Shown: positions 33,316-45,968 of the stretch, in pieces
Position numbering within the stretch: the first letter of the stretch is position 1
Layout of the letters: every line of letters begins with the position of its first letter
IMG/VR virus record: IMGVR_UViG_2778261035_000005
DNA length: 64,000 nt
Strand: one strand, 5' to 3'
From: a virus
Lineage: Duplodnaviria; Heunggongvirae; Uroviricota; Caudoviricetes
Program-made: the position numbers and the translations under genes
The notes under the pieces: generated by a model
Told to the model about the DNA's origin: nothing
What the model saw: the letters and a program-made list of their open reading frames with translations, nothing else
The model's database searches: none

Positions 33316-36300
33316 TTGAACATGGAACAGTTCAAGAAGAAAAAGCTACCGCTGTTTATTGCCGGTGCGGGTGGTAAAAAAAGCAGCAAAAGCTCCAGCC
33401 GTACACCGGTTGAAGCCGACGATACCGTAAATTCTCGTGCAATGGCCGCTATCCTCGATCTTCTTGGGGAAGGGGTAATTGGCGGCTTAGTAAATGGCGC
33501 AAGATCTATTTTTATCGACGATCTGCCGATTGTAAATGAAGACGGTTCCTCCAACTTCAGCGGAATCACATGGGATTTTCGCGACGGTTCACAAGACCAG
33601 ACTCCAATGTCTGGCTTTGATTTCGTTGAAACGCCTAAATCCGTCAATATCCAGTTAAAAAAAACACATTATGTAACGGTTTCAATCGATAACGATGAAG
33701 CTGATCGGGTTCGTGTCATCATGAAGTTTCCTTCTTTGCGAAGCATAGATAAAAAAACTGGTGACACGAACGGTACGACTGTTGAGTACAAGTTCCAGAT
33801 AGCAAATGGCGACTCAACATTTGTAGATGTGGTCGCGGAAGGTGAAAAAAGCGTTGGCATTAAGCTAACAGCAAAGAAGACCAGCGTTTATTACCGTAGC
33901 TACGAGCTGAAGCTGCCTAAGCCTGGACGCGCATACAAGGTTCGTGTAGTCCGTATTACCGATGATAACAGTAGCCAGTATCTCTATAACGATACATGGG
34001 TGGATTCAATCGGGGAAATTGTCGATACACCGATGAACTATCCAAACTCTGTTTTAGTTGGATTGAAGGTAAACTCTGAGCAATTCGGCAGCACCATGCC
34101 ATCTCGCTCTTATCTGGTGCGTGGCCTAAAAATTCGAGTACCTTCAAACTATAACGAGTCCAGTAACACTTACGCTGGGGTATGGGATGGCACTTTTAAG
34201 CTGTTGTCTTCTTCGAACCCCGCGTGGATTCTCTTTGATTTGCTGACCAATGCTCGATATGGCCTTGGTCAGTATGTGTCGGAATCTATGATTGACCTTG
34301 GCCAGTTGTACCAGATTGGTCGATATTGTGACGAAGAGGTCGATGATGGCTTTGGTGGCAAAGAGAAACGCTTTGCAATCAATACGCAGATCACCAGTCG
34401 ACAGGACGCATACCGACTAATTCAGGATATTGCTGGAGCATTCCGCGGCATGGTGTTTTGGGCTGGTGGGATGGTTAACATCATGCAGGATAGCCCATCA
34501 GATCCGGTAATGATGTTTACCAACTCTAACGTCAAAGATGGATTGTTTACCTATAAAGGTTCTGCGCGTAAAGATCGCCCATCCGTTGCGCTCGTAACCT
34601 ACAACAACAAGGAGGACGGTTATAAGCAAAACATCGAGTACGTTGAAGATCAGGACGCAATGCGCCGTTATGGTGAGCGTAAGACAGAAGTCGTAGCATT
34701 TGGCTGTACAAGCCGAGGGCAGGCTCACCGAGTTGGTTTGTGGCTTTTATATACCGCCAGAATGGAGTCGGATGTAATTACATTTACTGCCGGCTTAGAC
34801 GCGTCATTTCTGATGCCTGGTGAAACCGTTCTGATTCAGAACAAATATCGCGCAGGCAAACGTAACTCAGGTCGAATTGTGGCGTTTACCAAAAACAGCG
34901 TCACACTCGATGCGCCGGTGTCGTTAGCCAAAGGCGGCTGCTTTATTCGAATACTGAATCAGGAAGGCAAAATCGTTGAACGCGATGTTCTTGAAACTGG
35001 CGAAAATATAACAAAAGTTACGTTTTCAAAATCCCTGTCTTCGGCTGAAACGCCTGTTTTGAACGGCGTCTGGACTATTACAGAACCAGACCTCGAACCT
35101 ATGCGCGTTCGCATCGTTAACATCGCGCAGGGGGAAACGCCGGGTAGCTTTGACATCACCGCTGTTGAGAACAATCCGTCTAAATATGAGGCGATCGACA
35201 ATGGTGCAACGCTTATCCCGCAAAATACGACGGTATTGGACCCGACTTACTCCAAGCCGTCTAATTTGCAAATCACCGAAGGGACTTATCTCTCAAGCCC
35301 TGGCAACCTGTCAGTAAAACTGACTGCAACATGGGAAGGGAAATCTCCAGAGTATTGGATCAGTTGGCGACGTTCTGATGAAAACAATGTATCGAACTGG
35401 CAATCGGCGCGTGTAACCGAAGAGCAATACGAAATCGTTAATGTTGCGGAGAATGGACGCTACGACTTCCAGCTGTATGCGGTTTCATTCAACGGTAAAA
35501 AAACAGAGATTATCAGTACCGTTTATCAGGTGCTGGGCACAATGACACCGCCAGATGCCCCAACGTCATTAACGGTCGTTGGAGACTATCGTAATGTGAT
35601 ACTGAATTGGGTTAATCCAGATTCGGTAGACCTTGATCACATTAATGTTTACGCATCCCAGACCAACAATCTGGATACGGCGAAACTGATCGCAGAGTCT
35701 GCAAGCACCACCTTTACACATGCTGGTCTTGGGGATAGCGAAACGTGGTATTACTGGGTTCGAGCATCGAACAAGCGAGGTATGTTAAGTCCTCCGAACT
35801 CAAACTTGGGTACAGAGGCGACAACTCGCGATGTACTGTCGTTCCTGACTGGCAAAATTACATCTTCCGAGCTTGGTCAGGCTCTGCTTGAGGACATCAA
35901 CAGCAAAGTCTCTCAAGAAGCAGTTGACGAGTTAAATGAGCATATCAACCAGAGCGTCGAATCTTTGGAGGGGTCGGTAAACGACGTTAAGGAAGATATA
36001 GCTGAATTAGATAAGCAGTTCAGCGATAACCTCGCGGATTTTGAAATAAAATTCAACGAGCGTAGCGATGCTTTGGAGAACGCACAAACCGAGCTTAAAG
36101 GTGAGGTTTCGGCAACGATCGACAAGGTCAATGAAGCGTTTGAAAAAATTGATGCTACTGATGCTGCAATTGTTGAAATCGAAAACACCGTATCTGAACA
36201 CGATAAAGCTCTCGCTAATACAGTCGAGGCAATAAAGGCTGCAAGAGATGAAGCGGCGGCTCTTATTGCTAAGGAAAGCGAGGCTCGTGTTGAAGGCGAT

Positions 36301-38049
36301 GCTGCAAACGCTAAACAATTGGAAGTGTTGCAGTCAACGGTAGAGGAAAGCTCCGCTGCCGTTGAAGAAATGAAAAAGACGGTTGCAGAGGTCGATCGTG
36401 CAAGTGCAGAACTGACTACGAACATTGAGGCTTTGGCCAAAACAAATATTGACCTGGCTCTTCGTCAAGATGAAGACCAGCACAAGCAGATGGTCAATAA
36501 CGCGAAGATCGCAACAACACAGAAAACCTTTGCTGATGATATGTCTGCAATGGCCACGAAGGTTGAGGAAATTCGCGTAGAAATTGGCGAAGACATTAAG
36601 GCCAGTATTCTGGAAGAGTCCACCGCTCGTGCCGATGGCGATGAAGCGTTGGCAAAGCGTGTCACTCAGCTGCAATCTAAGTTTGAAGGAGATATCAGCG
36701 CGGCGATTAGTACAGAGCAGGAGGCTCGTACATCTGCCGATGAAGCTCTGACGACACAGATCACTCAGCTTGAGTCGAAAGTAAGCAACGATATCGTCGC
36801 AGCTATTAAGGAAGAGCAAGAAGCCCGAGCAACGGAAGATTCGGCTCTGGCAAGCCAGATCACCCAACTTCAGGCAAAGGTTGATGATGATATTTCTGCT
36901 GCAATACGTAGTGAGCAGGAGGCCCGAGCAAGCGGGGACTCTGCGTTAGCCAAACAAATAAACCAGCTTCAGTCAAAGGTTGACGGTGATATATCCGCGG
37001 CCATCACTCAGGAGCAGGAGGCCAGAGCAAGTGCTGACCAGGCGCTCTCACGAGAAATTAACAGCCTGCGAGCACAAACCGGAACTGATATTGCCGCAGC
37101 GGTTGCTGTAGAGACAAAAGCAAGGACTGATGCCGATAGTGCATTGTCTACCCAGATTACGTCTCTTACAGCAAAAGCTAATGATCTCGAGGCGTCTCTT
37201 GCCAGAGAAACAACGGCTCGTGCAGATGGTGATACCGCTTTAACAAAAGAGGTTTCAAGTTTAAAAGCACAGACAGCGAAAGATATTAGTGCGGCCGTTG
37301 CAGTTGAAACGCAGGCTCGAACTGATGCTGACTCGGCGTTGTCGTCTCAGATCACCAAGCTGACCTCTCAATACAAAGAGGATATTAAAGCGGCTGTAGC
37401 AACCGAAACGAAAACGCGTACAGAGCAAGATGCTGCATTGGCGACTCAAATCACAAACTTAGAGTCTCAAACAGCAGCCAACATTTCTGCGGCGGTCACA
37501 ACTGAAACGACAGCGAGAACGCAGGCAGATAATGCTCTAAGTGGGCGAATCGATACTCTGAAAGCAGAGGTGGATGGAAATACCGCGACAATTCAACAGC
37601 AGGCAACAGCCATTGCTGATACCAACAAAAAAGTCTCAACCGCGTGGACGTTGAAAATGGAGACTTCAACGAGCGGAGGGCAGAAGTATGTTGCCGGTAT
37701 TGCGCTTGGTATCGACACCACCGGTCTTTCTCAGTTTTTGGTGCAGGCGGACAGATTTGGTTTGGTCAACTCTGTTAACGGGAAGATCACCACGCCATTT
37801 GTTATCGAAAACAGTATCGCCTATATGAATGGTGCGTATATCAAGGATGGCACAATCACCAATGCAAAAGTAGGCGATCTGCAATCTACCAATTTTGTTA
37901 GCGGTAGATCTGGATGGCGGTTCGGCAAAAATGGAACGCTTGAGATTAACGGTAATAGCGGCGGCAATGGGCGATTGGTCATAAATGGTCAGCGGATTGA
38001 CGTTTATGACGATAACAACGTCCTCCGAGTGAGAATTGGCCTTCTGTGA
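33316..38049 (+). CDS. host specificity / central tail fibre protein (lambda J-like) with inserted tandem coiled-coil repeats
   Basis: 1577 aa; J-like N-terminal two-thirds; ~36.25-37.6 kb holds ~14 repeats of EQEARxxADxALxxQITxLxSKVxxDIxAAI. Confidence 0.8.
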   Translation: MNMEQFKKKKLPLFIAGAGGKKSSKSSSRTPVEADDTVNSRAMAAILDLLGEGVIGGLVNGARSIFIDDLPIVNEDGSSNFSGITWDFRDGSQDQTPMSGFDFVETPKSVNIQLKKTHYVTVSIDNDEADRVRVIMKFPSLRSIDKKTGDTNGTTVEYKFQIANGDSTFVDVVAEGEKSVGIKLTAKKTSVYYRSYELKLPKPGRAYKVRVVRITDDNSSQYLYNDTWVDSIGEIVDTPMNYPNSVLVGLKVNSEQFGSTMPSRSYLVRGLKIRVPSNYNESSNTYAGVWDGTFKLLSSSNPAWILFDLLTNARYGLGQYVSESMIDLGQLYQIGRYCDEEVDDGFGGKEKRFAINTQITSRQDAYRLIQDIAGAFRGMVFWAGGMVNIMQDSPSDPVMMFTNSNVKDGLFTYKGSARKDRPSVALVTYNNKEDGYKQNIEYVEDQDAMRRYGERKTEVVAFGCTSRGQAHRVGLWLLYTARMESDVITFTAGLDASFLMPGETVLIQNKYRAGKRNSGRIVAFTKNSVTLDAPVSLAKGGCFIRILNQEGKIVERDVLETGENITKVTFSKSLSSAETPVLNGVWTITEPDLEPMRVRIVNIAQGETPGSFDITAVENNPSKYEAIDNGATLIPQNTTVLDPTYSKPSNLQITEGTYLSSPGNLSVKLTATWEGKSPEYWISWRRSDENNVSNWQSARVTEEQYEIVNVAENGRYDFQLYAVSFNGKKTEIISTVYQVLGTMTPPDAPTSLTVVGDYRNVILNWVNPDSVDLDHINVYASQTNNLDTAKLIAESASTTFTHAGLGDSETWYYWVRASNKRGMLSPPNSNLGTEATTRDVLSFLTGKITSSELGQALLEDINSKVSQEAVDELNEHINQSVESLEGSVNDVKEDIAELDKQFSDNLADFEIKFNERSDALENAQTELKGEVSATIDKVNEAFEKIDATDAAIVEIENTVSEHDKALANTVEAIKAARDEAAALIAKESEARVEGDAANAKQLEVLQSTVEESSAAVEEMKKTVAEVDRASAELTTNIEALAKTNIDLALRQDEDQHKQMVNNAKIATTQKTFADDMSAMATKVEEIRVEIGEDIKASILEESTARADGDEALAKRVTQLQSKFEGDISAAISTEQEARTSADEALTTQITQLESKVSNDIVAAIKEEQEARATEDSALASQITQLQAKVDDDISAAIRSEQEARASGDSALAKQINQLQSKVDGDISAAITQEQEARASADQALSREINSLRAQTGTDIAAAVAVETKARTDADSALSTQITSLTAKANDLEASLARETTARADGDTALTKEVSSLKAQTAKDISAAVAVETQARTDADSALSSQITKLTSQYKEDIKAAVATETKTRTEQDAALATQITNLESQTAANISAAVTTETTARTQADNALSGRIDTLKAEVDGNTATIQQQATAIADTNKKVSTAWTLKMETSTSGGQKYVAGIALGIDTTGLSQFLVQADRFGLVNSVNGKITTPFVIENSIAYMNGAYIKDGTITNAKVGDLQSTNFVSGRSGWRFGKNGTLEINGNSGGNGRLVINGQRIDVYDDNNVLRVRIGLL

Positions 38050-38142: not shown

Positions 38143-41100
38143 ATGTGGTACAGGGAAGGTACTATCACATTTACACAGGGTAGCAATACCCTCGTTGGTG
38201 TTGGAACAGCCTGGAACGTAACAGCTAATGGTGTGTTGCCGGGCATGATCGTCATTGGCCCCGACAATAAGCTGTATGAGATCAAGCGCGTAACCAGTGA
38301 TACAAACATTGTTCTCTCAGAACCTTATACCGGCGAAACTCAGTCTGAAGTTCCGTGCCGAATCATTACGACCTATGAAGGTGACTTAACGCAGTTTAGC
38401 GCGCGCTTTACTGCACTAATGTCGCGTATGTCGGCTGATTCCAAGTCTATGCGCAGTTGGTTGACTGCTCTTGATGAGGTGACAATCGAGCGTGAAGACG
38501 GTACAGAAGTGACCGTTAAGCCGCTAATGCAGATCGTCAACGAGCACAACGAAAACGTTGAGTGGTATAAAAATAACACTGACGCGATTGATGCTGCTGG
38601 CGACAAAGCTCGTGAGGCGGCGGCCAGTGCTGCCGCAGCGGCAGAAAGCGCCAATACCGCTGGAGAAAAAGCATCTCAAGCGTCTCAAAGTGCATCCGCT
38701 GCGGCATCCTCACAAAGTGCTGCAAGTGCGAGTGCAACTGCTGCGAAAAGATCTGAAACGAACGCAGAGGCCGCCAAAGAAGCGGCAGCAGAATCAGCGT
38801 CTGTAGCATCGACCAAAGCATCGGAGGCTGCAATATCTGCGTCCAGTGCCTCTGCATCTAAGGATGCAGCCAAAGCATCAGAGACTAACGCTTCATCGAG
38901 TGCAAACGCGGCTGCATCATCGGCAACAGAAGCTGCAAATTCCTCTAAGGCAGCAAAAACGTCAGAGGCAAACGCAAAAGCATCTGAAACGGCAGCCGAA
39001 CAGAGTGCATCGTCTGCAAACAGTTCGAAATCTGCGGCAGAAGCGTCAGCAAGTGCAGCCTCAGCAAGTGCGGATAGTGCTTCATCAAGTGCAACAGCGG
39101 CAGGAAAATCTGCGGATAGCGCATTGTCATCCGCGACAACAGCTACCACAAAAGCGACAGAGGCGACGAGTCAGGCTACAGCTGCTAAAAATTCAGCATC
39201 GGCAGCAAAAACCTCTGAAACAAATGCAAAGACCTCAGAAGACAATGCTGCTTCCTCTAAGGCGGCAGCTGCTGAATCTGCAAGTTCTGCGTCTGCATCA
39301 GCCACCTCAGCATCCGCTTCAAAAGATGAGGCGACCAAGCAGGCATCAGCAGCGAAGAGCAGTGCTTCAACGGCATCCACGAAGGCAACAGAGGCGGCAG
39401 GCAGTGCGACAGCTGCATCTCAGAGCAAAACTGCTGCTGAATCCGCTGCGACCCGTGCGGAAGCTGCCGCTGATCGTGCTGAAGAGATTGCCGGTGCAGT
39501 TGCGATGGAAGACGCAAGCCTTACCACCAAAGGTGTTGTGAAACTTAGCAGTGCTGTCGACAGCACCAGTGAATCGCTGGCCGCAACGCCAAAAGCAGTT
39601 AAAGCAGCCAATGACAATGCGAATAGCAGGGTGCCATCTAACCGAAAAGTTAACGGTAAAGCACTGACTGCGGATATCACATTAACGCCGAAAGATATTG
39701 GTACTTTAAATTCAGTAACGATGTCTTTCTCTGGCGGGGCTGGGTGGTTCAAACTGGCTACGGTTACCATGCCACAAGCGAGTTCCATCGTTTACATCGC
39801 ATTGATTGGTGGCGCTGGTTACAACGTCGGCTCCCCACATCAGGCAGGCATTTCAGAACTGGTTCTACGAGCAGGCAATGGAAACCCCAAAGGGATTACA
39901 GGTGCTTTGTGGAAGCGTACAGCTGTCGGATTAACGAATTTCGCCTGGATCAACACATCCGGCGATACATATGATATTTACGTTGAGATTGGCAATTATG
40001 CGACGAGTGTAAATATCCATTGGGATTGTACTGCAAATGCGACAGTTTCTATTTATACATCGCCAACATATTCAGCGAGTAAGCCTTCCAGCGTTACCGA
40101 TGGTGTTGTTTATACGATGTATAGCACACATCAGAAACCGACGCCGTTAGATATTGGTGCACTGCCAACAACCGGAGGAACAGTTTCAGGTCCGTTGTCT
40201 GTTACTGGTGGGATCACCGGAACATTAAATGGTAATGCAAGTACAGCAACGAAATTACAGACGGCAAGATCTATCGGTGGAGTTGGTTTCGACGGTTCTG
40301 CCAATATTAATCTTCCAGGTGTAAACACTACGGGTAATCAGAACACCACTGGTAATGCCGCAACTGCTACAAAACTACAGACGGCAAGAACTATCGGCGG
40401 CGTGAGCTTTGATGGTACTGCAAATATTAATTTGCCAGGTGTTAATACGACTGGTAATCAGAATACAACAGGTAATGCGGCTACTGCTACGAAGTTGCAG
40501 ACTGCGCGTACTATTAATGGGGTGTCGTTTGACGGTTCGGCAAATATTTCCTTGTCACCAGCAAATATAGGTTGCCCAGCATCTCCTACTGGTTGGTTAA
40601 CTACAGGAAGTAATGGCGGAGCAATAACAACAGCCCAGTTAGTGACGTTATTGCAAAATAATGGAGCCTTTAACACAAAGTCATGGATTGCTCGATGTGC
40701 GTGGGCCTATGCCAATAGTGCAACCATACCAAATAGTGAAACTGGTTGTGGCGTTATTCCATTGGCAGGAGCTGTTATAGAGGTATTTAATAACGGTAGT
40801 AGCTCAAACAATTATACGATCCGTATAACAACGGCCACAACGACGAGTGTCTCTGGTGCTCTCACTAATGCGGAGTTTATCTATGTATTTAATGGCACAG
40901 ATTATTCTCCAGGATGGCGAAGAGTATATAACACGAAAAACAAACCAACAGCCTCTGATGTCGGTGCATTACCTCTTACCGGTGGTACATTATCTGGAGG
41001 TTTGACATCTTCTGGCGAGATCATTTCAAAATATGCAAATGGTTTCCGCATTGCTTACGGTAGCTTTGGGTTCTTTATCCGTAATGATGGGTCGAACACA

Positions 41101-42171
41101 TATTTCATGCTAACAGCATCAGGAGACACATTAGGTTCATGGAACGGTTTGCGACCGATTACAATTAACAATACCAGCGGTGCTGTATCAATTGGTAATG
41201 GACTAAATGTGACTGGTGGCGTAAATGGTAGTTTGAACGGTAATGCTTCAACAGCTACGAAGTTGCAAACAGCGAGAAACATCAATGGTGTTAAGTTTGA
41301 TGGCTCAGGCGATATCAACATTAATACATTGGTATCTCGTGGCCGAGTTACGGCGTTAAGCGGTTCTGCTCAAGGTACTGCTGGCATTCAAATGTACGAG
41401 GCGTACAGCAATAGCTACCCGACCACGTATGGCAACGTATTGCACATGAAAGGTGCGAGTGCTGCTGGTGAGGGCGAGTTGCTTATTGGCTGGAGTGGTA
41501 CGAGCGGTGCACATGCGCCGGTTTTCATTCGCTCCCGAAGAGATACCACTGATGCGGCATGGTCAGCGTGGGCGCAGGTATATACCGCTAAGGATTCAAT
41601 ACCTGGTGTGAATACAACCGGTAATCAGAACACTACTGGTAATGCTGCCACCGCCACAAAATTGCAGACAGCAAGGAAAATTGCTGGTGTGGCGTTTGAT
41701 GGCTCTGCCGATATTACTTTGACTGCGGCTAACCTTAATGCCTATACGAAAACAGAGGTAACAAACCTTCTAAGTTCCTATGTGAAGAGCAGTGCTCTTC
41801 CAAGTATGACTGTGCGAACTTCCTCTGTTTCAGGTGGGGATATGGGCATGAGTTTGTCCACATTCATTAGCCACCTAAAATCAAATGGGGCGTTTAGCAA
41901 AAGTTATTGGATTGGCTTTGGCGATGCTATGGGATTCAATGCTGGCAGTATCAACAATATAACGGGATTTGGTGCTGTAGAATTAGCAGAATCTATAATC
42001 GAAGTTTTTAATCTACCTAACGGTGATTATACAATTCGTTTAACAACGTCACATAAAGCTGACTACGGTGGAGTTACAAACGCAATCCTCGTTTATCACT
42101 ACCGTAGTAATAGAAGTCCGTCAGGTCAATGGCTGAAATTTGCAGGTACTGTTGGGGCAACAAGTAACTGA
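38143..42171 (+). CDS. side tail fibre (lambda Stf-like)
   Basis: Ala/Ser-rich KTSETNAK-type repeats and repeated GNQNTTGNAATATKLQTAR...FDGSANINLPGVNTT motifs typical of Stf/long tail fibres. Confidence 0.8.
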   Translation: MWYREGTITFTQGSNTLVGVGTAWNVTANGVLPGMIVIGPDNKLYEIKRVTSDTNIVLSEPYTGETQSEVPCRIITTYEGDLTQFSARFTALMSRMSADSKSMRSWLTALDEVTIEREDGTEVTVKPLMQIVNEHNENVEWYKNNTDAIDAAGDKAREAAASAAAAAESANTAGEKASQASQSASAAASSQSAASASATAAKRSETNAEAAKEAAAESASVASTKASEAAISASSASASKDAAKASETNASSSANAAASSATEAANSSKAAKTSEANAKASETAAEQSASSANSSKSAAEASASAASASADSASSSATAAGKSADSALSSATTATTKATEATSQATAAKNSASAAKTSETNAKTSEDNAASSKAAAAESASSASASATSASASKDEATKQASAAKSSASTASTKATEAAGSATAASQSKTAAESAATRAEAAADRAEEIAGAVAMEDASLTTKGVVKLSSAVDSTSESLAATPKAVKAANDNANSRVPSNRKVNGKALTADITLTPKDIGTLNSVTMSFSGGAGWFKLATVTMPQASSIVYIALIGGAGYNVGSPHQAGISELVLRAGNGNPKGITGALWKRTAVGLTNFAWINTSGDTYDIYVEIGNYATSVNIHWDCTANATVSIYTSPTYSASKPSSVTDGVVYTMYSTHQKPTPLDIGALPTTGGTVSGPLSVTGGITGTLNGNASTATKLQTARSIGGVGFDGSANINLPGVNTTGNQNTTGNAATATKLQTARTIGGVSFDGTANINLPGVNTTGNQNTTGNAATATKLQTARTINGVSFDGSANISLSPANIGCPASPTGWLTTGSNGGAITTAQLVTLLQNNGAFNTKSWIARCAWAYANSATIPNSETGCGVIPLAGAVIEVFNNGSSSNNYTIRITTATTTSVSGALTNAEFIYVFNGTDYSPGWRRVYNTKNKPTASDVGALPLTGGTLSGGLTSSGEIISKYANGFRIAYGSFGFFIRNDGSNTYFMLTASGDTLGSWNGLRPITINNTSGAVSIGNGLNVTGGVNGSLNGNASTATKLQTARNINGVKFDGSGDININTLVSRGRVTALSGSAQGTAGIQMYEAYSNSYPTTYGNVLHMKGASAAGEGELLIGWSGTSGAHAPVFIRSRRDTTDAAWSAWAQVYTAKDSIPGVNTTGNQNTTGNAATATKLQTARKIAGVAFDGSADITLTAANLNAYTKTEVTNLLSSYVKSSALPSMTVRTSSVSGGDMGMSLSTFISHLKSNGAFSKSYWIGFGDAMGFNAGSINNITGFGAVELAESIIEVFNLPNGDYTIRLTTSHKADYGGVTNAILVYHYRSNRSPSGQWLKFAGTVGATSN

Positions 42172-43404: not shown

Positions 43405-43656
43405 ATGCTAGGCAGCCTGATGACAAAGCTAAAAGTTGCTTTGATTACGCTGGCTGCCGTTCTTTTCGTTCTTGTCGGCGCTTACACGATGGGCGGGAAT
43501 GCGGCGCGACGAGCAATGGAAGAGAAGGCAAAACAGGAAGACAGAAAACGACTTCAAAGCACAGTGGAAGTGGTGAATGAGACGAGCAATAAAATACGTC
43601 AGAAAGATGCTTCTGCCGTTCATCGTGAGTTGTATGATAAGTGGGTGCGTCATTAA
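43405..43656 (+). CDS. i-spanin (Rz-like)
   Basis: N-terminal TM helix then charged coiled-coil-like segment; 83 aa. Confidence 0.6.
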   Translation: MLGSLMTKLKVALITLAAVLFVLVGAYTMGGNAARRAMEEKAKQEDRKRLQSTVEVVNETSNKIRQKDASAVHRELYDKWVRH

Positions 43657-43792
43657 ACCACAAACCGCCAGCGTATTGTTCTGCGATGGAGCTGGGCCTA
43701 TCTATATCAGCAATAATGATGTGATGACCGAAGAAACCGAACGCCAAATCCTTTTTCACAATACGATGGGAGAGAGAGTTTGCGGTTGGTGA
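43607..43792 (+). CDS. o-spanin (Rz1-like lipoprotein), overlapping Rz out of frame
   Basis: Lipobox MISGC; starts inside Rz in another frame and extends beyond it. Confidence 0.55.
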   Translation: MLLPFIVSCMISGCVIKPQTASVLFCDGAGPIYISNNDVMTEETERQILFHNTMGERVCGW

Positions 43793-43799
43793 TGCGAAG

Positions 43800-43817
43800 T
43801 TCCCCTCACTTGAGGGG
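43800..43817. terminator. bidirectional terminator between lysis genes and toxin gene
   Basis: cccctcacttgagggg hairpin. Confidence 0.55.
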
Positions 43818-43823
43818 AGTACA

Positions 43824-44345
43824 TTATTCTTCGAACAATTTTTCGATAGATTTTGTAGGATAGAACAAAGAACGCTCGTTGTTACCAACCAGCTGGATAA
43901 AGCCTAAACTTTTATAAAACGCCTTGGCTTTGTCATTTAACGCCTCAACGAAAAGTCCATGAATGCCTACAGCAAGAGATGCATTGTACACAACGCGCAT
44001 TGCATGTGTTACAAGCATTGAGCCAAATCCTTGACCTTGAAGGGACTTGTCCAAAGCCAGCCTACCCAAAGTAACACTTGGAACATTCCGATAAGGTACC
44101 TTCTTTTGCTGGCTTCTTGAAGGTAAGGACTCCTTTTCAAAGCAGCTACCTGACAAAGTGTAATACCCTAACACTTTTGGTCTGCCTTCTTTCGTGCAAA
44201 GCACATAAGCGCGAAGAATTTTTCCCTCATGCTGCCTTTTTAAGTGGTTGGTTAAAAAGGCATTTAGTGATTCTTCACCGCAATCAAAACCATTCAAATC
44301 ATAATCTTTCTCTCCAGAGAAAATTTCTATCTTTATATTATCCAC
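43824..44345 (-). CDS. GNAT-family acetyltransferase toxin (TacT/AtaT-like)
   Basis: GNAT motif GRLALDKSLQGQGFGSMLV; immediately downstream of DUF1778-type antitoxin. Confidence 0.75.
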   Translation of the reverse strand: MDNIKIEIFSGEKDYDLNGFDCGEESLNAFLTNHLKRQHEGKILRAYVLCTKEGRPKVLGYYTLSGSCFEKESLPSRSQQKKVPYRNVPSVTLGRLALDKSLQGQGFGSMLVTHAMRVVYNASLAVGIHGLFVEALNDKAKAFYKSLGFIQLVGNNERSLFYPTKSIEKLFEE

Positions 44346-44352
44346 GAGTAAA

Positions 44353-44622
44353 CTACTCCATGCTTTTCAGACGATCAGCAGCTCGTTTCAGCTTGTCGTT
44401 CGGTGCCGGAGGATTGCTTATAGCGTCCATAACCAGATTCCAGGATTCTTCATTCAGAACTAGTCTACGGTGTTGCTCTATAACTTTCACGGCACGTTCA
44501 GATGCACTGCTAACCATAAACTGAGTAATGCTCTGGTTAGACATTGCGGCAGCTTCCTCGATGATGCTTTTATCGTCATCGGTTAATCTCAAATCGATGC
44601 GCTGCTTTTTTAGTGCTGACAT
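44353..44622 (-). CDS. DUF1778/RHH antitoxin (TacA/AtaR-like)
   Basis: MSALKKQRIDLRLTDDDKSIIEEAA... characteristic N-terminus; antitoxin-first order. Confidence 0.75.
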   Translation of the reverse strand: MSALKKQRIDLRLTDDDKSIIEEAAAMSNQSITQFMVSSASERAVKVIEQHRRLVLNEESWNLVMDAISNPPAPNDKLKRAADRLKSME

Positions 44623-44890
44623 GTATTCCTCCTGATGGCCGTGATGTAGGAAGGCCATCAATCTCCTCTGTTCAAACTGAGTTTTCGACTCAAAAATTAC
44701 TTTAAAAGGCTATAGCCCATTACGTGTGCATTATCAAATTGTGTACGGCATATCACCGTACTTGTAATATAGAGGTCATTGTTACTTTTTTCAACAGACA
44801 AATACAAGCTATGATTGCCAATTGTTAATCACAACCTACCATTTAACCTTTACACCGCAGCCGTAGGCATTTAGGCTATATCACATATAA

Positions 44891-44940: not shown

Positions 44941-45609
44941 ATGACCAAGATCTTTGTGGTTGGCGGCACAAAGGGCGGGCCTGGCAAATCCACCGTTGCC
45001 CAGCAAATTGCCGTTTGCCTGAAAGTCAAAAAGAAGAAGAAGGTTTATATCACTGATATAGATATTCAGCGCACGACAACAAGCTGGTGTGAAGACCGTC
45101 GACAGAACGAAGACCTTGAGCTGATTCCTTTTGCATACGTTCAGGATGACATCATTAAGCACCTAAAATCGCTTCAGGGTAGAGCTGAGTTTGTAGTGGT
45201 AGATGCTGGTGGCTTTGACTCCGAAATTCAGCGACAAGCGATGCTGATGGCCGACGTTATCATTATCCCGCTTCGTCCTAAGCGTCGTGATTTGAAATCT
45301 CTGCGTGACATCGATCCTATTATCGACAATGTTCGTAATGTAAACGATAAAGTGAAGGTCCGCGCGGTCATGAACCAGTGCCCGGCTTTGCCATCACAAG
45401 TGTCTCGCATTCTGGCGGCTAAAGAGATTGTCGAGACGTTTGGCATCGAGTCTGCGCCAGTCAATCTATATAACCGCAACGTCTACGATGATGCGGAAGA
45501 GTCTGGTCGTTCTATCTTTGAAATGACCGGTAGCGAGCGCGACAAAAAGGCGGAAGCCGAGTTTGAAGAATTTGTAGATTATCTGTTGAGTCTGGAGGAA
45601 GAAGAATAA
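44941..45609 (+). CDS. parA: ParA-family partition ATPase
   Basis: Deviant Walker A GGTKGGPGKST; 222 aa. Confidence 0.85.
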   Translation: MTKIFVVGGTKGGPGKSTVAQQIAVCLKVKKKKKVYITDIDIQRTTTSWCEDRRQNEDLELIPFAYVQDDIIKHLKSLQGRAEFVVVDAGGFDSEIQRQAMLMADVIIIPLRPKRRDLKSLRDIDPIIDNVRNVNDKVKVRAVMNQCPALPSQVSRILAAKEIVETFGIESAPVNLYNRNVYDDAEESGRSIFEMTGSERDKKAEAEFEEFVDYLLSLEEEE

Positions 45610-45968
45610 TGTCCATGAAAATGGGTGACCTAGCAAAGCGCAAAGAGCCTGATGCACCGGCCAAGAACACAACTCCTTTGCGCCAACCAGTCAGACCACA
45701 GGGACGCCCGACTCGTGGCAAAGAGAAAATTAAAAGCCGCACAATGTCACTGGAAGACGAATACTTCGAACTGCTGGAGATGATGAAGTTCATCCCTCGC
45801 TTCGAGAAATTCACCCGCTCTGATGTGATTCGTGCTGCTATTTTCCATCTTGCGGAGAAGACACCGCAGGAAATCGAGGACATCGTAAAGCTGAACGAGG
45901 CGATCACAGCTGCCGATGTCACGATGCGTACCGATGAAATTAAACGCGAGTTGATGAAGAAAGGTTAA
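45609..45968 (+). CDS. RHH centromere-binding protein (ParG-like)
   Basis: Basic disordered N-terminus + C-terminal RHH-like segment; ATGA overlap with parA. Confidence 0.55.
   Translation: MSMKMGDLAKRKEPDAPAKNTTPLRQPVRPQGRPTRGKEKIKSRTMSLEDEYFELLEMMKFIPRFEKFTRSDVIRAAIFHLAEKTPQEIEDIVKLNEAITAADVTMRTDEIKRELMKKG

What the first reader, a model, noticed from the sequence alone, without database searches (positions are those of the whole stretch)
36250..37620. Host-specificity (J-like) protein carries a long tandem coiled-coil repeat insert
About fourteen consecutive copies of a ~27-aa unit (EQEARxxADxALxxQITxLxSKVxxDIxAAI) lie inside an otherwise J-like central fibre protein. This predicts an extended coiled-coil spacer not in the lambda J plan as I recall it; repeat number may vary and tune fibre length or reach.
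Basis: partly seen in the sequence, partly recalled or inferred. Interest (0 to 1): 0.5.

Follow-up and report, generated by a model that had tools for sequence, protein, structure and literature searches.

The report
Modular coiled-coil shaft in phage J fibre
The central tail-fibre (J) protein of this SSU5-like E. coli phage-plasmid has a long helical shaft containing ten tandem 33-residue units; phage T1 and F-type pyocins have a shorter version of the same module, which in pyocin F7 was recently shown to refold into a beta-prism to open the tail tip.

Summary
It is 10 tandem units of 33 aa (one of 32 aa), at aa 1099-1427 of a 1575-aa J-like protein (window 36616-37602). One degenerate unit lies upstream. 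It is not about 14 units of 27 aa.

The array is detectable only at protein level. Relative to lambda J, about 558 aa of helix sit between the last FNIII domain and the C-terminal Phage_Tail_Tip domain, and the lambda receptor-binding end is absent.

This insert is not unique. A unit profile finds 1252 protein clusters, mostly with the array directly upstream of the tip domain, and arrays reach about 20 units. Solved relatives, T1 gp33 and the F-pyocin central fibre, have shorter versions.

In pyocin F7 this shaft is a trimeric coiled coil that switches to a beta-prism and opens the tip (He et al. 2026). Every unit here carries that paper's SxSxxMxxLxS motif twice, in opposite orientations, plus the E-R-D salt-bridge triad.

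Unit number differs among near-identical SSU5-like J proteins (1, 5, 6, 9 or 10), including single-unit deletions. The 10-unit allele is nevertheless stable across about 165 E. coli plasmids.

Verdict: a new, long member of a known kind. Moderate-low interest.

The parts
33322..38049 (+). Gene for the J-like central tail-fibre protein (1575 aa, ATG at 33322). It is 99.7% identical to protein J of Escherichia phage Cyrano (pLF82).
   Evidence: Gene order M-L-K-I-J is shown.
33322..35901 (+). Hub and FNIII part (aa 1-860). It is collinear with lambda J 3-836 and at least 90% conserved among SSU5-like relatives.
35902..36387 (+). Irregular proximal part of the helical shaft (aa 861-1022). Hydrophobic period is 3.55. 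It is poorly conserved (0.25-0.57), with 25-aa and 52-aa indels in relatives. Fold-switch motif hits in alternating orientation run from aa 921 to 1022.
36274..36372 (+). Lone degenerate copy of the 33-aa unit (aa 985-1017).
   Evidence: E 1e-5.
36382..36615 (+). Conserved island within the shaft (aa 1021-1098, contains LALRQDEDQHKQ). It is 0.73-0.84 conserved, and aa 1023-1075 are motif-free. It is a candidate docking site or non-switching insert; this is inference only.
   Evidence: The analogy is to the acidic docking kink of F-pyocin shafts (PMC12874032, PMC13455828).
36616..37602 (+). Array of 10 tandem units (aa 1099-1427). Nine units are 33 aa and one is 32 aa. Consensus: ExxARxxADxALxxQITxLxSKxxxDISAAIxx. 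Hydrophobic period is 3.65 (= 11/3).
37555..37668 (+). Junction where the helix ends and three beta strands are predicted (aa 1412-1449). These may correspond to the non-switching seed strands described for F7. The prediction has low confidence.
   Evidence: pLDDT 40-57 in this stretch; PMC12874032.
37588..37992 (+). Phage_Tail_Tip (PF09327, formerly DUF1983) beta domain (aa 1423-1557). The protein ends 18 aa later, with no lambda-type receptor-binding domain.
38143..42171 (+). Downstream side tail-fibre gene (1342 aa; P1/Mu S-like, with a T4 gp34 trimerisation domain). Its first 120 aa or so are conserved in SSU5 and PhiR41_1.

Best explanation
The region is the alpha-helical shaft of the trimeric central tail fibre. 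It lies between the last FNIII domain and the distal beta-prism (Phage_Tail_Tip) domain of a lambda-J-like protein. It belongs to a module shared with phage T1 gp33 and the F-type pyocin central fibre protein.

The distal 329 aa are ten tandem 33-residue units. Each unit is three hendecads: two with hydrophobic cores (L12/I16/L19 and V23/I27/A30-I31) and one ionic (E1/R5/D9). The array would form an under-wound, nearly straight three-stranded coiled coil of about 49 nm, or 4.9 nm per unit. The whole helix would be about 81 nm.

By homology with pyocin F7, the shaft is most likely metastable. On receptor engagement at the distal end it would refold into a triangular antiparallel beta-prism. Each 33-aa unit would supply one beta-hairpin: a forward strand ALxxQITxLxS and a reverse strand AAIxxExxARA. 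This would shorten the fibre, pull the tip to the envelope, open the tip and release the tape-measure protein. Units can be added or lost in register, so different lineages carry shafts of different length.

What is shown: the repeat anatomy, the position of the insert, the homology, the motif pattern, the periodicity and the copy-number differences.

What is inferred: trimeric coiled-coil geometry and lengths; the fold switch and its consequences; and any docking of the side fibre on the conserved island at aa 1021-1098.
For: - Domain order and the position of the insert relative to lambda J.
- The shaft plus tip domain matches T1 gp33 (PDB 9l9p, E 4e-29), the F2-pyocin fibre (25vf, E 1e-24) and 9ze4 (E 3.5e-17).
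- AF2 with a 17-sequence alignment gives one uninterrupted helix over aa 1091-1405 at pLDDT 80-92, followed by strands.
- The hydrophobic period is 3.65 in the array and 3.55 upstream.
- The published motif SxSxxMxxLxS occurs 25 times in aa 1099-1440, against 5.05 +/- 2.3 in composition-matched shuffles (maximum 14 in 500). In every unit it appears forward at unit position 11 and reversed at unit position 29.
- Motif density is 7.3 per 100 aa in the array, 0.85 in the tape-measure protein and 0.45 in the side fibre.
- The same forward/reverse alternation, with about the same 33-aa period, is seen in the solved relatives T1 gp33 and F2 pyocin.
- The invariant E1-R5-D9 triad matches the buried Asp/Glu-Arg (i, i+4) salt bridges described for F7 (PMC12874032).
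- Cryo-EM shows a trimeric coiled coil in F2, F7 and PA0641, and the alpha-to-beta-prism switch in F7. Mutants that block the switch are dead (PMC12874032, PMC13455828, bioRxiv 10.64898/2026.02.24.707460).
- Whole-unit indels occur between proteins more than 90% identical.
Against: - No experiment or trimer model exists for this protein.
- Both AF2 runs were monomeric and predicted helix only, never a beta form, so the switch is untested here.
- Sequence similarity of the F-pyocin shaft to the units is strong only for its last unit.
- PA0641 was described as mainly heptad-based, with one stutter. The array here has 11/3 periodicity.
- He et al. note that lambda and T5 do not use this switch, so it is not universal among J-like fibres.
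- A 330-aa switch region would be twice the length of the one demonstrated.
- No glycine kink or match to PyoF13 supports side-fibre docking.
Confidence: 0.6

Rival explanations
1. Static spacer. The array is a stable coiled-coil stalk whose only role is to set how far the distal tip domain, and whatever binds it, projects from the tail tip. Unit number tunes reach through O-antigen or capsule.
For: - Length differs in whole-unit steps between lineages.
- AF2 predicts only helix, with high confidence.
- T1 gp33 is modelled as a fibre of about 370 A (PMC11945409).
- The shaft is the least conserved part of J, as expected for a spacer under few constraints.
Against: - A pure spacer need not keep small residues at fixed positions or the alternating SxSxxMxxLxS pattern in all 10 units. 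Six columns are invariant despite 42-72% nucleotide divergence.
- The homologous F7 shaft is demonstrably not static (PMC12874032).
Confidence: 0.25
2. Docking platform. The main role of the shaft is to carry the three side tail fibres, as in F2 and F7 pyocins. The repeats simply extend the rod beyond the docking site.
For: - F-pyocin side fibres dock on an acidic kink of the shaft (PMC12874032, PMC13455828).
- An 80-90-aa island here (aa 1021-1110, with QDEDQ) is 0.73-0.84 conserved, amid 0.22-0.57 in the flanks.
- The side fibre encoded next door has a conserved N-terminus.
Against: - The side-fibre N-terminus has no detectable similarity to PyoF13 or any solved docking domain.
- The island contains no Gly or Pro kink.
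- This does not explain the repeat array itself, which lies distal to the island.
- The idea is compatible with the best explanation rather than exclusive of it.
Confidence: 0.12
3. The apparent repeat is a compositional or chance effect of an Ala/Glu/Thr-rich helical segment, or an assembly artefact.
For: - TRF finds no DNA repeat.
- Many database homologues are partial proteins that break in this region.
Against: - Each unit scores E of about 1e-15 to 1e-20, and there are invariant columns.
- The lag-33 autocorrelation is 2.18, against at most 0.31 at other lags apart from its harmonic at lag 66 (1.59).
- The identical 2147-nt sequence occurs in complete plasmids, about 165 at 95-100% identity.
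- The same array is present in isolated phages Cyrano, SSU5 and PhiR41_1.
Confidence: 0.01

Closest known systems
F-type pyocin central fibre protein (PyoF10 / PA0641; F7 and F2 pyocins; PDB 25vf, 25vj, 26ci)
   Same: - It has a J-like hub and FNIII domains, then a long helical shaft, then a C-terminal beta-prism of the Phage_Tail_Tip type with no built-in receptor-binding domain.
- The shaft plus tip aligns at E 1e-24.
- The last units show the same forward/reverse SxSxxMxxLxS alternation.
- It has an E/D-Arg salt-bridge pattern.
- A side-fibre gene lies downstream.
   Different: - The pyocin shaft is about 163-178 aa, with only one unit clearly matching the profile. Here the helix is about 545 aa, with 10 well-kept units.
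- The pyocin shaft is reported as mostly heptad-based with one stutter. The array here has 11/3 periodicity.
- The pyocin has an acidic Gly-containing kink (RDDADDGNG) for side-fibre docking, and no such kink is seen here.
- The pyocin has PyoF11/F12 adhesins downstream, which are absent here.
- This element is a DNA-containing phage, not a tailocin.
Phage T1 gp33 central fibre protein (PDB 9l9p; PMC11945409)
   Same: - It is the best PDB match for the shaft plus tip (E 4e-29).
- It has 33-aa periodic units (ALSREIDQLKAQIGDDIQASLTDIRE...) with the same motif alternation.
- It ends with the same ...LRVxIG C-terminus.
   Different: - It has only about 4 units, in a 1172-aa protein.
- Its C-terminal 352 aa were not resolved experimentally.
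Lambda gpJ (PDB 8iyk, 8xcj)
   Same: - The N-terminal 836 aa are collinear (E 7e-125).
- The Phage_Tail_Tip region is homologous (lambda 839-971).
- The gene neighbourhood is the same (M, L, K, I, J).
   Different: - Lambda has no shaft at all between the FNIII domains and the tip domain.
- Lambda carries about 160 aa of C-terminal LamB-binding domain that is absent here.
- According to He et al., lambda does not use the large fold switch.
J proteins of other SSU5-like phage-plasmids (SSU5, PhiR41_1, CMS-2020a, E. coli 1229-aa alleles, pHCM2/pMT1 types)
   Same: - They are orthologues. The first 860 aa and the tip domain are 78-100% identical.
- They have the same shaft design and the same conserved island.
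   Different: - Unit number differs: 1, 5, 6, 9 or 10.
- There are 25- or 52-aa indels in the proximal shaft.
- Some carry an extra C-terminal extension of about 115 aa.
- The Klebsiella versions share only aa 1-900 and reach 4045 aa.

Membership tests
Lambda-type tip attachment protein J / TipJ (central tail-fibre protein) | N-terminal hub domains and FNIII domains collinear with lambda J | tested here: met
   Pfam PF24801, PF13550 and PF00041. Lambda J 3-836 aligns to aa 19-860 at E 7e-125.
Lambda-type tip attachment protein J / TipJ (central tail-fibre protein) | Encoded after the M, L, K and I tail-tip genes, downstream of the tape-measure gene | tested here: met
   Pfam hits for Phage_min_tail, Phage_tail_L and the NlpC/JAB K-like protein upstream. 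Cyrano annotation.
Lambda-type tip attachment protein J / TipJ (central tail-fibre protein) | Reaches the NCBIfam lambda_TipJ (NF049904) curated cut-off | tested here: not met
   530.5 bits against a cut-off of 1950. The model covers aa 23-959 only. The protein is J-like but not an equivalog of lambda J.
Lambda-type tip attachment protein J / TipJ (central tail-fibre protein) | C-terminal receptor-binding domain (lambda J about 972-1132) | tested here: not met
   The protein ends 18 aa after Phage_Tail_Tip. Lambda matches stop at J residue 971.
Fold-switching coiled-coil shaft of central fibre proteins (F7 pyocin type, He et al. 2026) | Long helical segment between the last FNIII domain and a C-terminal beta-prism domain | tested here: met
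   About 558 extra aa relative to lambda. AF2 helix over aa 1091-1405 at pLDDT 80-92.
Fold-switching coiled-coil shaft of central fibre proteins (F7 pyocin type, He et al. 2026) | Sequence homology of the C-terminal region to an F-pyocin central fibre protein (the authors' BLAST criterion) | tested here: met
   F2-pyocin fibre 25vf at E 1.1e-24 over aa 1240-1547. T1 gp33 at E 3.9e-29.
Fold-switching coiled-coil shaft of central fibre proteins (F7 pyocin type, He et al. 2026) | SxSxxMxxLxS pattern recurring with alternating orientation | tested here: met
   25 hits against 5.05 +/- 2.3 in shuffles. In all 10 units the motif is forward at unit position 11 and reversed at position 29. Negative controls are at background.
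Fold-switching coiled-coil shaft of central fibre proteins (F7 pyocin type, He et al. 2026) | Asp/Glu at M positions partnered by Arg four residues away | tested here: met
   E1, R5 and D9 are invariant in all 10 units.
Fold-switching coiled-coil shaft of central fibre proteins (F7 pyocin type, He et al. 2026) | Trimeric coiled coil in the resting state | not testable with these tools
   Only monomer AF2 was available. The hydrophobic period of 3.65 is compatible with a hendecad coiled coil.
Fold-switching coiled-coil shaft of central fibre proteins (F7 pyocin type, He et al. 2026) | Three non-switching prism strands at the start of the C-terminal domain | tested here: inconclusive
   AF2 places three strands at aa 1412-1449 directly after the helix, but at pLDDT 40-57.
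Fold-switching coiled-coil shaft of central fibre proteins (F7 pyocin type, He et al. 2026) | Both alpha and beta-prism conformations obtainable (experimentally, or by deep versus shallow alignment prediction of the trimer) | tested here: inconclusive
   The 17-sequence alignment and the single-sequence monomer model both gave helix only. The monomer setting cannot form a prism.
Fold-switching coiled-coil shaft of central fibre proteins (F7 pyocin type, He et al. 2026) | Side fibres dock on an acidic kink of the shaft | tested here: inconclusive
   There is a conserved acidic island at aa 1021-1110 and a conserved side-fibre N-terminus. There is no Gly kink and no similarity to PyoF13.

The most novel reading that the evidence does not exclude
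The 33-aa unit is the quantum of a fold-switch spring. Each unit stores a fixed amount of energy and contributes about 4.9 nm of helix that collapses to one beta-hairpin rung of about 1 nm. On this reading, the natural allelic series of 1 to about 20 units in otherwise near-identical J proteins would be selection matching stroke length and force to the thickness of the host's O-antigen or capsule layer. The SSU5-like phage-plasmids, with 1, 5, 6, 9 or 10 units on a hub that is at least 90% identical, would then be a ready-made titration series for testing how non-contractile tails generate force.
Probability: 0.3. Interest if true: 0.55.

Novelty: new member of a known kind. Interest (0 to 1): 0.33.

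Why it matters
How non-contractile phage tails obtain the energy to breach the envelope was only recently given an answer, for one pyocin: a coiled coil that refolds into a beta-prism.

This window shows a much longer and very regular version of that module. It sits in a widespread E. coli phage-plasmid lineage. About 4% of complete E. coli genomes carry an SSU5-like J gene, and about 3% carry this 10-unit allele.

The regularity gives a clean mapping of one 33-aa unit to three hendecads or one beta-hairpin. Natural alleles differing only in unit number offer a direct way to test whether length sets reach, stored energy, or both.

For annotation, the array has no Pfam family and is invisible to DNA repeat finders. 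Such proteins are therefore labelled only as DUF1983 or tail tip fibre proteins.

Tried and rejected
- **DNA repeat finders.** TRF and the repeat finder found no array at DNA level. The repeat is old and diverged in nucleotides, so slippage-type hypervariability is rejected. This agrees with the length stability across E. coli plasmids.
- **AF2 runs.** A 17-sequence alignment and a single sequence were run as a proxy for the deep-versus-shallow fold-switch test. Both gave helix. Only monomers can be modelled here, so this says nothing decisive.
- **Foldseek.** Searching the model against PDB gave only weak matches to the lambda J fibre and the SU10 tip fibre, at TM 0.08-0.11, because of the long helix. 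It was not informative.
- **Side-fibre docking.** The search for a PyoF13-like docking domain in the downstream side fibre matched only P1/Mu S and T4 gp34 segments.
- **Supplementary data.** The supplementary tables of He et al., which would show whether SSU5 was among their 24 phages, are not held.
- **Antisense ORFs.** The ORFs at 35913-36440, 36007-36318 and 36334-36867 have no family hits. I take them to be by-products of the biased codon content.
- **Virion tail length.** The Cyrano virion tail measures 259 nm, against 230 nm predicted from the tape-measure protein (PMC9928086). This cannot be assigned to the fibre and was not used.
- **Chance or composition.** This explanation was rejected on the evidence listed under the fourth rival.

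Full report
**1. What is in the sequence**

The finding lies inside one long ORF, window 33322-38049 on the + strand, encoding 1575 aa. Pfam places four domains in it:
- FNIII-A_GpJ at aa 102-236
- Phage-tail_3 at aa 358-521
- fn3 at aa 745-824
- Phage_Tail_Tip (PF09327, formerly DUF1983) at aa 1423-1557

PHROGs assigns it to 'central tail fiber J'. The genes upstream are the tape-measure gene and homologues of lambda M, L, K and I. Downstream lies a 1342-aa side fibre resembling P1/Mu S.

The protein is 99.7% identical to protein J of Escherichia phage Cyrano, the SSU5-like phage-plasmid pLF82 of E. coli LF82 (PMC9928086). The DNA queried (window 33322-35880 and 35900-38046) is 100% identical to plasmid NZ_AP022089.1.

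**2. Checking the observation**

Protein self-comparison has a single sharp period at 33 residues. Mean BLOSUM62 is 2.18 at lag 33 and 1.59 at lag 66, and at most 0.31 at other lags.

There are ten contiguous units at aa 1099-1427, window 36616-37602. Nine are 33 aa and one is 32 aa. The consensus is ExxARxxADxALxxQITxLxSKxxxDISAAIxx. Columns E1, R5, D9, A11, L12 and L19 are invariant.

A unit profile scores each copy at E 1e-15 to 4e-20. It also finds one degenerate copy at aa 985-1017 and a partial copy at aa 1073-1096. It finds nothing else in the six-frame translation of the window.

The repeat is therefore real and far beyond chance. It is 10 x 33 aa, not about 14 x 27 aa.

At DNA level nothing is detectable. 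TRF finds no array, units share 42-72% nucleotide identity, and there are no long exact repeats. The antisense ORFs over the region have no family matches.

**3. Is it an insert relative to lambda J?**

Yes. Lambda J residues 3-836 align to aa 19-860, and lambda 839-971 align to aa 1418-1547. About 558 aa (861-1418) have no counterpart in lambda.

Conversely, lambda's last 160 aa or so, the LamB-binding domain, have no counterpart here. The protein stops 18 aa after the tip domain.

The extra segment has three parts:
- an irregular helical part at aa 861-1022
- a conserved island at aa 1021-1098
- the 10-unit array

**4. Physical character**

AF2 with a 17-sequence alignment predicts one uninterrupted helix from aa 1091 to 1405 at pLDDT 80-92. 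This is followed by three strands at aa 1412-1449, with low confidence, and then the beta-rich tip domain. Without an alignment AF2 again predicts helix.

The hydrophobic period is 3.65 in the array, which equals 11/3, and 3.55 in the upstream helix. One unit therefore reads as three hendecads:
- two with hydrophobic cores (L12-I16-L19 and V23-I27-A30/I31)
- one with an ionic core (E1-R5-D9)

This predicts an under-wound, nearly straight coiled coil. At about 0.148 nm per residue (my inference), a unit adds 4.9 nm, the array is about 49 nm and the whole helix is about 81 nm.

**5. Relatives and copy number**

Counts of units in related proteins, using the unit profile:

| Protein | Units | Source |
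|---|---|---|
| Window and Cyrano | 10 | |
| CMS-2020a (strain SCU-175) | 10 | |
| PhiR41_1 | 9 | |
| SSU5 | 5 | |
| Burkholderia KS9 | 7 (about 32-aa units) | |
| Vibrio P2 | 2 | |
| mEp043 | about 0 | |
| 1228/1229-aa J alleles on 105-114 kb E. coli contigs | 1 | |

- The 1229-aa alleles are about 98% identical to this protein over the first 860 aa.
- SSU5 differs by five units and a 25-aa indel.
- Among proteins more than 90% identical, single units are missing at different places. P0001 lacks unit 4, P0008 lacks unit 2, and PhiR41_1 lacks one unit relative to CMS-2020a.
- One complete plasmid is exactly 99 nt shorter, and another has an IS1 inserted in the gene.

The locus is not hypervariable, however. 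Of 5426 complete E. coli genomes, 225 carry the J hub. Of those, 165 carry this shaft at 95-100% identity. In a spread sample of 40 matching plasmids, 35 of the 37 full-coverage matches had exactly the query length.

Conservation along five SSU5-like J proteins:

| Region (aa) | Conservation |
|---|---|
| 1-840 | at least 0.87 (mostly at least 0.9) |
| 871-1020 | 0.25-0.57 |
| 1021-1110 | 0.73-0.84 |
| array | 0.22-0.57 |
| 1411-1575 | 0.78-0.97 |

A profile of the unit, searched against 1.84 billion representative proteins, finds 1252 clusters at E up to 1e-3 and 537 at E up to 1e-10. Of the best 150, 107 have a Phage_Tail_Tip domain directly after the array. Those 107 carry 4-20 units. The commonest spacing family-wide is 32 aa, followed by 36, 33 and 39. 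One J-like protein of 2138 aa has 20-23 units.

The module is therefore common, and ten units is upper-middle, not extreme.

**6. What is known about this module**

The PDB copy holds three relevant relatives:
- T1 gp33 (9l9p, E 4e-29)
- the F2-pyocin central fibre (25vf, E 1e-24)
- a 'J central straight fiber domain' protein (9ze4)

The literature on these says the following.
- For T1, the C-terminal 352 aa were unresolved and were modelled as a fibre of about 370 A (PMC11945409).
- For F2 pyocin and PA0641, cryo-EM shows a three-stranded coiled-coil 'alpha-helical shaft' on which three side-fibre trimers dock at an acidic, Gly-containing kink (PMC13455828; bioRxiv 10.64898/2026.02.24.707460).
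- For F7 pyocin, He et al. (PMC12874032) showed that the 163-residue coiled coil converts into a triangular antiparallel beta-prism on cell contact. This opens the tip and ejects the tape-measure protein.
- Gln substitutions at small residues block killing without blocking assembly.
- He et al. defined the pattern SxSxxMxxLxS per strand, with Asp/Glu at M positions paired to Arg four residues away. They predicted the same switch for 21 of 24 related siphophage fibres.

**7. Testing that description here**

The motif occurs 25 times in aa 1099-1440. Composition-matched shuffles give 5.05 +/- 2.3, with a maximum of 14 in 500.

In every unit it appears once forward (unit position 11, ALxxQITxLxS) and once reversed (unit position 29, running into the next unit, AAIxxExxARA). 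The orientations alternate strictly, as antiparallel strands require. One unit would therefore give one beta-hairpin.

The invariant E1-R5-D9 triad is the described salt-bridge arrangement.

Motif density is at background in the tape-measure protein (0.85 per 100 aa) and the side fibre (0.45), against 7.3 in the array.

The same forward/reverse alternation at about a 33-aa period is present in the T1 gp33 and F2-pyocin fragments shown in the PDB alignments.

Alternating hits also run through aa 921-1022. They are absent from aa 1023-1075, the conserved island.

The switch itself could not be tested, because the structure tool models monomers only.

**8. Interpretation**

The best-supported reading is that this is a long, modular member of the F-pyocin/T1 type of central-fibre shaft.

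The following are well supported:
- a helical shaft
- its homology to the T1 and F-pyocin shafts
- its modular structure
- its difference from lambda J

That it is a metastable coiled coil which fires by refolding into a prism is inferred from homology and motif conservation. I put that at about 0.5-0.6.

A purely static spacer remains possible (about 0.25). So does a primary role as a side-fibre platform, which is compatible with the best reading rather than exclusive of it.

The conserved island and the conserved N-terminus of the neighbouring side fibre fit docking. There is no kink, however, and no similarity to the pyocin docking domain.

**9. Novelty and score**

The kind is known: three structural papers from 2025-2026, and a prediction that it is widespread.

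What this analysis adds is modest:
- the exact 33-aa unit and its equivalence to three hendecads or one hairpin
- in-register gain and loss of units among near-identical phage-plasmid J proteins
- the population stability of the 10-unit allele
- the breadth of the unit family and the absence of a Pfam model for it

I rate it a new member of a known kind, with interest about 0.33.

Noticed in passing
L005 (Klebsiella phage pJN2-26, MZ779062.1 55798-67935): The J-like gene of Klebsiella SSU5-like phage-plasmids encodes 4045 aa. It shares only aa 1-900 or so with the window protein (about 81% identity) and then diverges. This is a giant central fibre with a different distal part.
   Followed up: no
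NZ_CP020118.1 41351-44273 (hit H60): In one complete E. coli plasmid an IS1 transposase interrupts the J gene within the shaft region. The gene is annotated there as two pieces.
   Followed up: no
Homologues P0021, P0024-P0027, P0030, P0069, P0071: The Salmonella Typhi (pHCM2-type 'VhsJ') and Yersinia pestis (pMT1-type) versions carry about 115 extra residues after the tip domain, ending ...LVFKA or ...LLFKA. The window protein lacks this extension. It may be a built-in receptor-binding domain.
   Followed up: no
window 35902-36120 (aa 861-930): The proximal shaft has its own length polymorphism that is not unit-based. There is a 52-aa gap in the 1229-aa E. coli alleles and a 25-aa gap in SSU5.
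   Followed up: partly
one search hit list: Many database homologues are 'partial' proteins that begin or end inside the shaft region. This suggests that short-read assemblies or gene calls often break there, even though the nucleotide repeats are diverged.
   Followed up: no
window 43445-44661 (- strand) and 44941-45968 (+ strand); Cyrano CYRAN_26-29 in L001: Just downstream of the lysis genes the element carries a KacT acetyltransferase toxin with its antitoxin, ParA and a RelE/ParE toxin, according to the Cyrano annotation. These are plasmid-maintenance functions adjacent to the tail module.
   Followed up: no
PMC9928086 (Cyrano virions): Putative Cyrano virions had tails of 259 +/- 12 nm, against 230 nm predicted from the 1525-aa tape-measure protein. 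Whether the tip complex or central fibre accounts for the excess is unknown.
   Followed up: no
window 38143-38500 (side fibre aa 1-120): The first 120 aa or so of the side fibre are highly conserved between the window, SSU5 and PhiR41_1, while the rest diverges or is truncated (1342, 1260 and 597 aa). This is as expected for an attachment domain.
   Followed up: partly
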